From Escherichia coli (GTDB taxonomy: Bacteria; Pseudomonadota; Gammaproteobacteria; Enterobacterales; Enterobacteriaceae): a stretch of DNA of 50,012 nt. Below, one piece after another: positions 15,743 to 17,057 of the stretch. Both the position numbers and the translations under genes were made by a program. Where the stretch lies: assembly GCF_003334315.1 (NCBI RefSeq), contig NZ_QOWR01000033.1, one strand, 5' to 3'. Position 1 is the first letter of the stretch. Each line of letters starts with the position of its first letter. Below the pieces are notes generated by a model that made no database searches, was not told where the DNA came from, and saw only the letters and a program-made list of their open reading frames with translations.

Positions 15743-15976
15743 ATGCGTAATATTGAAACCCTCTCGACCAAAACCGGACCGGATGACGCAGGGCTTAATA
15801 TTTTATTGACAGAGGCTCGTCTGGAAGAACGCCGGGCAAGGGCTGAAGCAATGGCAGCTCGCCTTGATAGCCTGGCGTGTCATATCACATCCCGCCAGCT
15901 AACCCACGTCGAAGCGGCAGAACTGCTTCGTGTGACTGCTGAAGCAATCCAGAACGAAGCGCAGGAGATCCACTAA
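15743..15976 (+). CDS. Hypothetical early phage protein
   Basis: ATG at 15743 preceded by aggaga; ORF track begins at an upstream TTG. Confidence 0.5.
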   Translation: MRNIETLSTKTGPDDAGLNILLTEARLEERRARAEAMAARLDSLACHITSRQLTHVEAAELLRVTAEAIQNEAQEIH

Positions 15977-16203
15977 TGGCTGATGCAATGGATCTCGTAC
16001 AGCAGCGCGTTGAAGAAGAACGCCAACGCCATATCCGTGCTGCCCGTGCCAAAACGCCGGGCGTGTCCCGCGTGCTTTGCATTGAGTGTGAAGCGCCAAT
16101 TCCGCCAGCACGCCGCCGTGCCATTCCGGGTGTGCAGCTTTGCATTACCTGTCAGGAAATCGCAGAGCTGAAAGGCAAACATTACAACGGAGGTGCTGTA
16201 TGA
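15976..16203 (+). CDS. TraR/DksA-family C4 zinc-finger protein
   Basis: CIECEAPIP...LCITCQE four-cysteine motif. Confidence 0.7.
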   Translation: MADAMDLVQQRVEEERQRHIRAARAKTPGVSRVLCIECEAPIPPARRRAIPGVQLCITCQEIAELKGKHYNGGAV

Positions 16204-17057
16204 GCACCATCCTGAAATGGGCGGGAAATAAAACTGCCATAATGTCCGAACTGAAAAAACATCTTCCTGCTGGCCCGCGACTGGTTGAACCTTTCGCGGG
16301 TTCCTGTGCTGTGATGATGGAGACGGATTATCCCAGCTATCTGGTTGCGGATATTAATCCTGATTTAATCAACCTCTATAAAAAGGTTGCCGCTGATTGT
16401 GAATCGTTTATATCTCGCGCCAGAGTTTTATTTGAGATCGCAAACAGGGAGGTGGCTTATTACAACATAAGGCAGGAGTTTAATTACTCAACTGAAATTA
16501 CTGATTTCATGAAAGCGGTATATTTCCTGTATCTCAATCGTCACGGTTACCGTGGTTTATGTCGCTATAACAAGAGCGGGCATTTCAACATTCCCTACGG
16601 TAATTATAAAAATCCGTATTTCCCTGAAAAAGAAATTCGCGCATTTGCAGAAAAGGCCCAGCGAGCAACGTTTATCTGCGCCAGCTTTGATGAAACGCTG
16701 GCGATGTTGAAGGCGGGGGATGTGGTGTATTGCGATCCGCCGTATGACGGTACGTTTTCCGGCTATCACACTGACGGCTTCACTGAAGATGACCAGTATC
16801 ACCTGGCATCTGTTCTTGAACATCGGTCATCAGAAGGACATCCGGTCATTGTTTCTAACAGTGACACATCCCTGATCCGTTCGCTGTATCGCAATTTTAC
16901 TCACCACTACATCAAGGCAAAACGCAGCATCGGTGTGGCAGTTGGCGAGGGTAAATCAGCAACAGAAATCATTGCTGTTTCCGGGCCGCGCTGCTGGGTG
17001 GGATTTGATTATTCGCGTGGCGTGGATAGTTCTGCCGTGTACGGAGTACGTGCATGA
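16200..17057 (+). CDS. dam: Prophage-encoded DNA adenine methyltransferase (Dam-like, no partner nuclease in view)
   Basis: Start at [11 protein letters not shown] overlapping the upstream stop; DPPY catalytic motif. Confidence 0.85.

What the first reader, a model, noticed from the sequence alone, without database searches (positions are those of the whole stretch)
15976..17057. Prophage-encoded orphan Dam-like methyltransferase coupled to a TraR/DksA zinc-finger gene
A Dam-type N6-adenine methyltransferase (DPPY motif) overlaps the stop of a TraR/DksA-like C4 zinc-finger gene in the early operon just before replication gene A. No cognate restriction gene is visible. It may protect phage DNA from host restriction or alter host methylation in lysogens.
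Basis: partly seen in the sequence, partly recalled or inferred. Interest (0 to 1): 0.3.

Follow-up and report, generated by a model that had tools for sequence, protein, structure and literature searches.

The report
Ordinary P2-like prophage Dam methylase gene
This is the well-known pair of early genes of a P2/186-like E. coli prophage, a small RNA-polymerase-binding zinc-finger protein followed by a stand-alone Dam-type DNA adenine methylase; the same pair is already annotated in about a quarter of complete E. coli genomes, so the finding is real but ordinary.

Summary
15976-16203 encodes a 75-aa TraR/DksA C4 zinc-finger protein. 16200-17057 encodes a 285-aa Dam-family N6-adenine methyltransferase with a DPPY motif. 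The two genes overlap by ATGA, and the methylase overlaps replication gene A by another ATGA.

The window is E. coli chromosome carrying a P2/186-like prophage (about 12168-46904, between rcdA and ybjL). The same gene pair is 93-98% identical in phages Cartapus, RE-2010 and KP12. It occurs in 1241 of 5426 complete E. coli genomes, where it is already annotated as "DNA adenine methylase" and "TraR/DksA family transcriptional regulator".

The methylase is 47% identical to E. coli Dam and keeps six of the seven GATC-contact residues. It is under purifying selection (dN/dS 0.11-0.26), and no restriction gene is present anywhere in the window.

The zinc-finger link is incidental. All four genes DUF2732, ZnF, Dam and A overlap in a chain, and diverged relatives keep Dam next to A without the zinc-finger gene.

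The gene sits in the repressor-controlled early lytic operon. A lytic-cycle role, topping up GATC methylation of replicating phage DNA, is therefore more likely than remodelling the lysogen's methylome.

The only unannotated detail is a conserved, disordered C-terminal tail. Novelty: already known. Interest: low.

The parts
15976..16203 (+). TraR/DksA-family C4 zinc-finger protein gene (75 aa), the orthologue of P2 Orf82 and the 186 zinc-finger ORF.
   Evidence: TIGR02419 65.8 bits against a cutoff of 59.7, and phrog_54 at 1.4e-30. PDB matches to TraR in complex with RNAP (5w1s, 6n57) and to YbiI. It is 46% identical to P2 Orf82, 68% to the 186 protein and 100% to RE-2010 gp09; D3, D6 and the four Cys are invariant. 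P2 Orf82 was shown to bind E. coli RNAP and inhibit rrnB P1 (PMC9239242).
16200..17057 (+). Orphan Dam-family N6-adenine DNA methyltransferase gene (285 aa). Catalytic DPPY at residues 179-182, methyltransferase core residues 1-263, disordered conserved tail residues 264-285.
   Evidence: TIGR00571 320 bits, PF02086 1.1e-76, phrog_56 3e-123, PADLOC orphan MTase 368.6 bits. It is 47% identical to E. coli Dam, and K6/Y117/L120/R122/P132/Y136 match the EcoDam GATC contacts. dN/dS is 0.11-0.26. The AF2 model has pLDDT 88.5, with the tail below 50.
16189..16203 (+). Translational coupling junction between ZnF and Dam: Shine-Dalgarno GGAGG (16189-16193) and the ATGA start/stop overlap (16200-16203).
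   Evidence: Read from the sequence.
17043..17057 (+). Translational coupling junction between Dam and A: GGAG (17043-17046) and the ATGA overlap (17054-17057).
   Evidence: Read from the sequence. The last ~15 nt resemble the orf84-A junction of phage 186. The 186 record notes that translation to the end of orf84 appears necessary for translation of A.
15743..15976 (+). DUF2732-family early gene (orthologue of P2 Orf80), the first gene of the overlapping chain; its TAA stop overlaps the ZnF ATG (TAATG).
   Evidence: phrog_128 at 5.5e-33. Annotated as DUF2732 in homologous records.
17054..19468 (+). Replication initiator gene A (rolling-circle nickase), with an ori-like sequence at about 19061-19097.
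   Evidence: phrog_91 at 3.2e-289. The ori core resembles the annotated nick-site regions of P2 and 186.
14298..14326 (+). Candidate early rightward promoter (TTGACG-17-TATGTT) between cI and the apl/cox-like gene, from which the operon containing ZnF and Dam would be transcribed.
   Evidence: Consensus scan only. The position corresponds to pR of 186 and Pe of P2. The region is identical in E. coli EC931 apart from three substitutions. This assignment is inferred, not shown.

Best explanation
The region holds two independent accessory genes of the early lytic operon of a P2/186-like (Peduoviridae) prophage of E. coli.

Gene 1 (15976-16203) encodes a TraR-family zinc-finger protein. Like its tested orthologue P2 Orf82, it should bind the secondary channel of host RNA polymerase and shift host transcription away from rRNA and ribosomal-protein promoters during lytic growth.

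Gene 2 (16200-17057) encodes an orphan Dam-family methyltransferase that most probably methylates the adenine of GATC.

Both genes are silent under CI repression. On infection or SOS induction they are transcribed from the rightward early promoter and translated in a ribosome-coupled chain: DUF2732, ZnF, Dam, A. Dam therefore appears together with the replication initiator.

The most likely job of Dam is to supplement the small pool of host Dam, so that the rapidly made phage copies are fully methylated before packaging. Each copy carries about 123 GATC sites. Full methylation would:
- keep progeny DNA resistant to methylation-sensitive GATC-cutting nucleases in the next host;
- keep phage DNA out of the hemimethylated or unmethylated state recognised by MutH and SeqA.

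Translation through the end of dam probably also delivers ribosomes to the A start codon.

Shown here: gene identities, motifs, overlaps, operon position, absence of a restriction gene, purifying selection and wide distribution.

Inferred: GATC specificity, lytic-only expression and the biological benefit.
For: Family identity: (TIGR00571 320 bits; PF02086 1e-76; EcoDam structures 5e-73; PADLOC orphan MTase 368.6 bits).

GATC specificity: the residues that PMC4417163 assigns to GATC recognition in EcoDam are K9, Y119, L122, R124, P134 and Y138. Here they are K6, Y117, L120, R122, P132 and Y136. Four of them (K6, R122, P132, Y136) are invariant in the 8-sequence alignment, which reaches down to 38% identity.

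Functional gene: dN/dS is 0.11-0.26 against four alleles. The protein cluster at 90% identity has 4038 member sequences. The gene pair is present in 1241 of 5426 complete E. coli genomes.

Operon context: the order cI(-) / apl-like, cII, fil, DUF5347, DUF2732, ZnF, Dam, A is identical to the annotated early operons of RE-2010, Fels-2-like prophages, 186 and P2. There is no promoter or terminator signal above chance inside it.

Coupling to A: ATGA overlap with GGAG 7 nt upstream. The 186 record states that translation to the end of the upstream ORF appears necessary for A translation.

Dam-next-to-A is kept across the Peduoviridae genera Felsduovirus, Gegavirus, Seongnamvirus, Novemvirus and Reginaelenavirus, and in the unclassified SopEphi, at 36-98% protein identity.

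The phage carries GATC at a near-host density: 3.6 per kb against 4.2-4.8 per kb in the flanks, observed/expected 0.77-0.91. It therefore does not avoid the site and does have something to methylate.

ZnF function: P2 Orf82 (46% identical) binds RNAP, competes with DksA and inhibits rrnB P1 (PMC9239242). D3 and D6 are conserved here.

SOS module: a LexA box at 19563-19578 lies ahead of a small ORF and a DinI-like gene.
Against: No activity, specificity or expression data exist for this protein in anything I could search. [quoted passage not shown]

All known hosts of this phage group (E. coli, Klebsiella, Salmonella) already have Dam (established knowledge), so the benefit of a second GATC methylase is not obvious.

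One EcoDam base-contact residue differs (N120 is R118 here). The protein scores below the curated cutoff of the chromosomal Dam equivalog model (288 against 441 bits).

P2 and 186 replicate well without any Dam gene, so the gene is accessory.

There is no GATC clustering at the ori core, and I found no other evidence of a specific target.
Confidence: 0.6

Rival explanations
1. Lysogenic conversion. The prophage Dam is expressed in the lysogen. It raises total Dam activity, methylates the few normally protected GATC sites, and thereby alters phase-variable gene expression, mismatch-repair strand discrimination (mutation rate) or replication timing of the host.
For: The gene is carried by 23% of complete E. 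coli genomes. It stays intact even where gene A next to it is frameshifted, as in EC931, which could hint at selection independent of phage replication. Transcripts of the Fels-2 genes STM2729 and STM2730 were detectable in LT2 cultures (PMC3844500). STM2730 as the Fels-2 dam homologue is my recollection; no tool result maps that locus tag to the gene.
Against: The gene lies in the middle of the CI-repressed rightward operon with no internal promoter signal above chance: 8 promoter-like sites found against 9.8 expected in 7 kb, none placed to drive dam on the + strand. Population-level transcripts are equally explained by spontaneous induction in a few cells. The true lysogenic-conversion cargo of this prophage sits elsewhere and is compositionally distinct (DarTG and Hp1-3, 31-36% GC, against 47% for dam).
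Confidence: 0.1
2. Phage-internal regulator. GATC methylation by the phage enzyme is required for a step of the phage's own cycle, as Dam methylation of pac is for P1 packaging. Candidates are control of the early promoter, of gene A or ori function, or of late gene or cos processing.
For: Dam is kept directly upstream of, and translationally coupled to, the replication initiator across several Peduoviridae genera. Two GATC sites lie in the switch region: one at 14316-14319, just upstream of the -10 hexamer of the candidate early promoter, and one 34 bp downstream. A review notes that many orphan phage MTases may regulate viral replication cycles and cites P1 (PMC12707154).
Against: The ori core inside gene A has no GATC. 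P2 and 186 use homologous A/ori systems without any phage Dam. Host Dam would methylate the same sites anyway. The overall GATC distribution shows nothing remarkable.
Confidence: 0.15
3. The enzyme has a specificity other than or broader than GATC. It would act as a general anti-restriction methylase against several host R-M, BREX or other methylation-reading defence systems.
For: One base-contacting residue differs from EcoDam (N120 to R118). The score is below the chromosomal Dam equivalog cutoff. Some phage adenine methylases have relaxed specificity (PMC7556043).
Against: The residues that discriminate the third and fourth base pairs (L122, P134, R124) and the first base pair (K9, Y138) are conserved. 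At 47% identity to EcoDam over the whole catalytic and recognition region, the simplest expectation is the same site.
Confidence: 0.08
4. The zinc-finger protein and Dam form a functional unit, for example the ZnF protein targets or regulates the methylase.
For: 4-nt ATGA overlap and co-occurrence in more than 1200 E. coli prophages.
Against: The same kind of overlap links every neighbouring pair in the chain. The ZnF gene occurs without Dam in P2 and 186. Dam occurs without an annotated ZnF gene upstream in ESSI-2, 3LV2017 and phiT5282H. The ZnF family has a demonstrated, DNA-independent target in RNA polymerase.
Confidence: 0.04
5. The methylase is the modification half of a restriction-modification system whose nuclease gene was missed.
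For: None found.
Against: The neighbours on both sides are ZnF and gene A, with overlapping stops and starts and no room for another gene. The whole window has no REase hit: the cargo region is DarTG plus Hp1-3 and the flanks are housekeeping genes. The best PADLOC model is 'orphan methyltransferase'.
Confidence: 0.01

Closest known systems
Dam genes of Felsduovirus/Xuanwuvirus-type P2-like phages (Salmonella phage RE-2010 gp10, Escherichia phage Cartapus Dam, Klebsiella phage KP12; more distantly Fels-2 and SopEphi)
   Same: Same gene at the same position (ZnF, Dam, A) with the same overlaps. Nucleotide identity is 97-98% to RE-2010, Cartapus and KP12, and about 74-75% to Fels-2 and SopEphi. 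Already annotated as DNA adenine methylase.
   Different: Nothing of substance. This is an allele of the same gene in an E. coli prophage inserted between rcdA and ybjL.
E. coli chromosomal Dam (EcoDam, PDB 2G1P/4GOL)
   Same: Same fold family (D12 class, alpha group). 47% identity over residues 4-263. DPPY catalytic motif. Six of seven GATC-contact residues are identical.
   Different: Scores below the curated cutoff of the chromosomal Dam equivalog (288 against 441 bits). N120 is Arg here. It carries an extra conserved but disordered 22-residue C-terminal tail. It is phage-borne, in a repressor-controlled lytic operon rather than the aroK-aroB-damX-dam operon (the latter from established knowledge).
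Other phage-encoded Dam-like orphan methylases (P1 Dmt/Dam, T4 Dam, Haemophilus P2-like phage HP1 Dam, VT-2/933W Dam)
   Same: Orphan GATC-type adenine methylases carried by phages of Dam+ hosts. Proposed roles are self-protection and, for P1, packaging (PMC7556043; PMC12707154).
   Different: T4 Dam is only distantly related (PDB 1yfj, E=5e-18). P1 needs methylated pac sites, and no equivalent target was found here. The roles of most of these enzymes remain unsettled.
P2 Orf82, lambda Orf73 and F-plasmid TraR (TraR family of RNA-polymerase secondary-channel binders)
   Same: 75-aa C4 zinc-finger protein with N-terminal D3 and D6. 46% identical to P2 Orf82, which binds E. coli RNAP, competes with DksA and inhibits rrnB P1. 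Same operon position as in P2 and 186.
   Different: The DxxDxA tip motif is DxxDxV here, and DxxDxI in P2 Orf82, whose incomplete motif the authors link to lower activity. No direct data exist for this protein.
Phage 186 orf84-A junction (variable accessory slot upstream of gene A)
   Same: An accessory DNA-metabolism gene whose stop overlaps the A start. The 186 record notes that translation to the end of the upstream ORF appears needed for A translation. The last ~15 nt are similar.
   Different: In 186 the slot holds an exonuclease-like gene, DUF5405 and a PAPS-reductase-like gene instead of Dam. Some E. coli prophages have Dam plus the PAPS-reductase-like gene, or Dam plus a 273-aa unknown.

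Membership tests
Dam family site-specific DNA-(adenine-N6)-methyltransferase (TIGR00571 / Pfam PF02086 D12 class) | Profile score above the curated family cutoff over the full domain | tested here: met
   TIGR00571 320.3 bits against a cutoff of 114.85, covering 1-260 of the protein and 1-266 of 267 profile positions. PF02086 1.1e-76, 1-253 of 253.
Dam family site-specific DNA-(adenine-N6)-methyltransferase (TIGR00571 / Pfam PF02086 D12 class) | Catalytic motif IV (D/N-P-P-Y/F) and AdoMet-binding motif I (FxGxG-like) | tested here: met
   D179-P-P-Y182 is invariant in the alignments. Motif I is E30-P-F-A-G34-S-C, with G34 invariant; the second Gly is Cys here.
Dam family site-specific DNA-(adenine-N6)-methyltransferase (TIGR00571 / Pfam PF02086 D12 class) | GATC-recognition residues of EcoDam (K9, Y119, N120, L122, R124, P134, Y138) | tested here: met
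   Six of seven are identical (K6, Y117, L120, R122, P132, Y136). N120 is R118. Residue roles are from PMC4417163. This supports, but does not prove, GATC specificity.
Dam family site-specific DNA-(adenine-N6)-methyltransferase (TIGR00571 / Pfam PF02086 D12 class) | Demonstrated m6A methylation of GATC | not testable with these tools
   Needs MboI/DpnI digests or a SMRT/nanopore methylome of a dam-null strain expressing the gene.
Chromosomal (housekeeping) Dam equivalog NF008152 / PRK10904 | Score above the equivalog cutoff | tested here: not met
   288 bits against a cutoff of 441. The protein is a Dam-family member but not the orthologue of the host dam gene.
Orphan (solitary) methyltransferase | No cognate restriction endonuclease gene adjacent or in the element | tested here: met
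   Both neighbours overlap the gene and are ZnF and gpA. The best PADLOC model is orphan MTase PDLC03729. The cargo is DarTG plus Hp1-3 and the flanks are housekeeping genes.
TraR family C4 zinc-finger proteins (TIGR02419) | Profile score above cutoff, about 73 aa in length, and a CxxC-x17-CxxC zinc finger | tested here: met
   65.8 bits against a cutoff of 59.7. 75 aa. C35, C38, C56 and C59 are invariant with P2 Orf82, the 186 protein and TraR.
TraR family C4 zinc-finger proteins (TIGR02419) | N-terminal DxxDxA tip motif that reaches the RNAP active-site region | tested here: inconclusive
   D3 and D6 are present; position 8 is Val instead of Ala. P2 Orf82, which has Ile there, is still active but weaker.
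TraR family C4 zinc-finger proteins (TIGR02419) | Binds the RNA polymerase secondary channel and inhibits rRNA promoters | not testable with these tools
   Shown for the 46%-identical orthologue P2 Orf82 (PMC9239242), not for this protein.
Type II restriction-modification system | A restriction endonuclease gene paired with the methylase | tested here: not met
   None in the 50-kb window.

The most novel reading that the evidence does not exclude
The conserved but intrinsically disordered C-terminal tail of the phage Dam is absent from host Dam. It spans residues 264-285, with the motif W-x-G-[FA]-D-x-[SA]-x-G-x-D. It could be a short linear motif that docks the methylase onto a partner, for example the gpA rolling-circle replisome or a host replication protein. 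Phage DNA would then be methylated co-replicationally and preferentially over host DNA. That would explain both the conserved Dam-next-to-A arrangement and why a phage of Dam+ hosts keeps its own GATC methylase.
Probability: 0.12. Interest if true: 0.4.

Novelty: already known. Interest (0 to 1): 0.08.

Why it matters
It matters little as a discovery. The gene pair is a standard, already annotated feature of a very common family of enterobacterial P2-like prophages, and the zinc-finger partner's orthologue has been characterised biochemically.

One general question stays open: why do phages of Dam-positive hosts keep their own GATC methylase? About a quarter of complete E. coli genomes carry a second, phage-borne dam gene, so the answer would be useful. 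It bears on the fidelity of methylation of phage progeny, on evasion of GATC-reading nucleases and on possible effects on host mismatch repair during induction. This window adds no new leverage on that question beyond the conserved C-terminal tail noted here.

Tried and rejected
1. GATC statistics. I looked for avoidance or enrichment of GATC in the prophage and for clusters near functional sites. Density is host-like (observed/expected 0.77-0.91) and there is no cluster at the ori core. This gave no mechanistic lead.

2. Internal promoter or terminator. I looked for signals that would separate dam from the early operon or allow lysogenic expression. Counts were at or below shuffle expectation.

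3. Restriction partner. I searched for one anywhere in the window, including the A-portal cargo hotspot. The hotspot holds DarTG and the Hp1-3 system instead.

4. Nucleotide versus protein constraint on the tail. I tested whether the last residues of Dam are conserved only because of the ribosome-binding site of A. That holds for the final ~5 codons, which resemble the 186 orf84-A junction. It does not hold for the W-x-G-x-D-x-A-x-G-x-D motif, whose third codon positions vary and which persists where dam does not abut A.

5. AF2 model, to see whether the tail docks on the enzyme. The tail is predicted disordered (pLDDT below 50), so no structural hint was obtained.

6. Literature searches for experiments on this Dam lineage. 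I found no direct study. STM2730 appears only once, in a microarray list.

7. Silence of the Fels-2 and SopEphi dam genes in lysogens. I hoped to cite evidence that dam mutants of Salmonella LT2 or SL1344 lack GATC methylation. The one paper I could read used strain 14028s, which I recall lacks Fels-2, so it is uninformative. The point rests on my memory only and was not used as evidence.
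Full report
**What is there**

The window is E. coli chromosome carrying a P2/186-like prophage.

- rimO, bssR, yliI, gstB, dacC, deoR, ybjG, mdfA, ybjI, ybjJ and rcdA occupy about 1-12150. This follows from matching ORF sizes and order to strain EC931.
- A 14-bp direct repeat, AACAAAAAACCCAT, at 12168 and 46891 brackets the prophage.
- The aspartate:alanine antiporter gene ybjL follows on the right.
- Inside the prophage the left end reads: integrase (12256-13386, minus strand), a small PRK10040-like ORF, a CI-type repressor (13704-14279, minus strand), then rightward a Cox/Apl-like gene, cII, fil, DUF5347, DUF2732, the zinc-finger gene, the methylase gene and gene A.

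**The zinc-finger gene (15976-16203, 75 aa)**

- It passes the curated TraR-family model (TIGR02419, 65.8 bits against a cutoff of 59.7) and matches phrog_54, "DksA-like zinc-finger protein", at 1.4e-30.
- Its closest solved relatives are E. coli YbiI and F-plasmid TraR bound to RNA polymerase.
- It is 100% identical to Salmonella phage RE-2010 gp09, 68% to the 186 protein and 46% to P2 Orf82.
- D3, D6 and the four cysteines (CxxC-x17-CxxC) are invariant.
- P2 Orf82 itself has been purified. It competes with DksA for E. coli RNA polymerase, inhibits rrnB P1 (IC50 250 nM) and complements a dksA-null strain. The authors place it in the Pe early operon with a presumed lytic-cycle role (PMC9239242).
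- The function of gene 1 is therefore known by close orthology, not by direct test.

**The methylase gene**

- The ORF listing extends the frame to a TTG at 16140. The annotated homologues all start at the ATG at 16200, which has GGAGG six bases upstream. The protein is 285 aa.
- Family scores: TIGR00571 (Dam family) 320 bits against a cutoff of 114.85; PF02086 1.1e-76; phrog_56 3e-123; E. coli Dam crystal structures 5e-73.
- It is 47% identical to EcoDam.
- It has the DPPY catalytic motif (179-182) and the motif I glycine.
- PMC4417163 assigns seven EcoDam residues to GATC recognition and intercalation. Six are identical here: K9, Y119, L122, R124, P134 and Y138 correspond to K6, Y117, L120, R122, P132 and Y136. 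N120 is Arg118.
- I therefore infer GATC specificity with about 85% confidence. It is not shown.
- The protein falls below the cutoff of the chromosomal Dam equivalog model (288 against 441 bits), so it is a family member but not the host dam orthologue.
- Pairwise dN/dS against four alleles is 0.11-0.26, as expected for a working gene.
- An AlphaFold2 model built on a 100-sequence alignment is confident for the core (mean pLDDT 88.5; most 10-residue blocks above 90).

**Is it an orphan?**

Yes. Its two neighbours overlap it and are the zinc-finger gene and gene A. PADLOC's best model is an orphan methyltransferase (368.6 bits). No restriction gene is present in the 50 kb. The low-GC (31-36%) cargo between gene A and the portal gene is DarT/DarG plus the three-gene Hp1-Hp3 system. 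The flanks are housekeeping genes.

**Is the "coupling" to the zinc finger meaningful?**

The overlaps are real: ATGA at 16200-16203. They are also generic. DUF2732/ZnF overlap as TAATG and Dam/A overlap as ATGA, so four genes form one translationally coupled chain.

Comparative synteny separates the two genes:

| Phage or prophage | Between ZnF (or its position) and gene A |
|---|---|
| P2 | ZnF, then DUF5405; no Dam |
| 186 | ZnF, then exonuclease-like, DUF5405 and PAPS-reductase-like genes; no Dam |
| Cronobacter phage ESSI-2, Klebsiella phage 3LV2017, Enterobacter phage phiT5282H (Dam 36-48% identical) | Dam just upstream of A, without an annotated ZnF gene in front |
| E. coli ERP001 | Dam plus a 273-aa unknown |
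| E. coli CE0026f | Dam plus a PAPS-reductase-like gene |

The space between the ZnF gene and A is thus a variable slot for accessory DNA-metabolism genes. The conserved association is Dam-A, not ZnF-Dam.

The 186 record notes that translation to the end of the ORF upstream of A appears necessary for translation of A. The last ~15 nt before the A start are similar here. Dam translation therefore probably also serves A expression; this is inferred.

**How it most likely works**

- The gene lies in the rightward operon that starts at the cI/apl switch. A TTGACG-17-TATGTT candidate promoter sits at 14298-14326.
- The 7-kb region shows no internal promoter or terminator signal above shuffle expectation.
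- Downstream of A there is a near-consensus LexA box (CTGTAAATATAAACAG, 19563-19578) in front of a small ORF and a DinI-like gene. This is the arrangement of the 186 p95/tum SOS module.
- The picture is a CI-silenced operon that is derepressed on infection or SOS induction. It then produces the RNAP-reprogramming protein, Dam and the replicase together.
- The prophage has 123 GATC sites at a density close to the host flanks and shows no avoidance.
- My best explanation is that the phage Dam supplements limiting host Dam during the replication burst, so that progeny genomes are fully methylated. Full methylation protects against methylation-sensitive GATC-cutting nucleases in the next host. It also keeps phage DNA out of the hemimethylated or unmethylated state read by MutH and SeqA. 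The roles of host Dam, MutH and SeqA are established knowledge; applying them to this phage is inference.
- The literature I could read says plainly that the role of phage Dam enzymes is not settled (PMC7556043; PMC12707154).
It is not excluded.

**Novelty**

None.

- The same pair is 96.6-97.0% identical over 4.2 kb in phages Cartapus, KP12 and RE-2010 and in many Klebsiella prophage-derived phages.
- Homologues at about 74-75% nucleotide identity sit in Fels-2 and SopEphi.
- The 1082-bp region is found in 1241 of 5426 complete E. coli genomes, where PGAP names both genes correctly.
- The 90%-identity protein cluster has 4038 member sequences.

**The one detail not in the annotations**

The phage Dam carries a 22-residue C-terminal extension that E. 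coli Dam lacks.

- W266, G268, D270, G274, D276, V279 and V283 are kept in about 90% of 102 full-length homologues.
- The W-x-G-F-D-x-A-x-G-x-D core is also kept in the 38%-identical 3LV2017 enzyme, where dam does not abut A.
- Third codon positions vary, so the constraint is on the protein.
- More distant Dam relatives align only to about residue 260.
- AF2 predicts the tail to be disordered.
- This looks like a short linear interaction motif of unknown partner. It is the basis of my "novel case", which I rate as improbable and only moderately interesting.

**Verdict**

The feature is ordinary and already known. Interest is low.

Noticed in passing
window 20520-25641: Low-GC (31-36%) cargo between gene A and the portal gene, the classical P2 tin/old hotspot. 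It encodes DarT (20520-21101), DarG (21106-22077) and a three-gene system matching PADLOC Hp1, Hp2 and Hp3 (22739-25641; the Hp3 match is weak, E=1.5e-08). These are two anti-phage defence systems carried as lysogenic-conversion cargo.
   Followed up: partly
window 16989-17054 (Dam residues 264-285): C-terminal tail absent from E. coli Dam, with the conserved motif W-x-G-[FA]-D-x-[SA]-x-G-x-D. It is kept even in a 38%-identical relative. The constraint is at the protein level (third codon positions vary). AF2 predicts it disordered. The partner or function is unknown.
   Followed up: partly
window 16203-17054 compared with L003, L004, L009, L010: The interval between the TraR-like gene and gene A is a variable accessory slot in P2-like phages. 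P2 has DUF5405. 186 has exonuclease-like, DUF5405 and PAPS-reductase-like genes. This window has Dam alone. Other E. coli prophages have Dam plus a PAPS-reductase-like gene or a 273-aa unknown. Recombination joints fall near the Dam tail: pS is about 0.8 in the tail against 0.17-0.27 over the whole gene.
   Followed up: partly
window 14316-14319 and 14350-14353: Two GATC sites lie in the cI/apl switch region. One is just upstream of the -10 hexamer of the candidate early promoter (TTGACG-17-TATGTT, 14298-14326). Both are conserved in E. coli EC931. They could make early transcription sensitive to methylation state; this was not tested.
   Followed up: no
window 19563-19578 and 19620-20052: Near-consensus LexA box CTGTAAATATAAACAG upstream of a 62-aa ORF (ATG 19620) and a DinI-like gene (19822-20052). 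This resembles the SOS-controlled p95/tum antirepressor module of phage 186.
   Followed up: partly
window 19061-19097: ori-like sequence inside gene A (gggcgcttgcgccccttggactcgtggcaataactgt), resembling the annotated nick-site regions of P2 and 186. It contains no GATC.
   Followed up: partly
window 12168-12181 and 46891-46904: A 14-bp direct repeat, AACAAAAAACCCAT, brackets the prophage and is the probable att core. The insertion lies between rcdA (ybjK) and ybjL, the same locus as in E. coli EC931.
   Followed up: partly
window 13497-13688 (- strand): A 63-aa ORF between integrase and cI matches the NCBIfam PRK10040 family of small hypothetical proteins (114.7 bits against a cutoff of 93). 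It has a signal-peptide-like N-terminus and may be a lysogen-expressed small secreted protein.
   Followed up: no
proteins P0008, P0009, P0069, P0056, P0061 (database hits, not in the window): Some E. coli records encode fusions of this Dam to a phage gpD domain (PF05954) or to gpA (PF05840). These are most likely deletion or frameshift products in decaying prophages.
   Followed up: no
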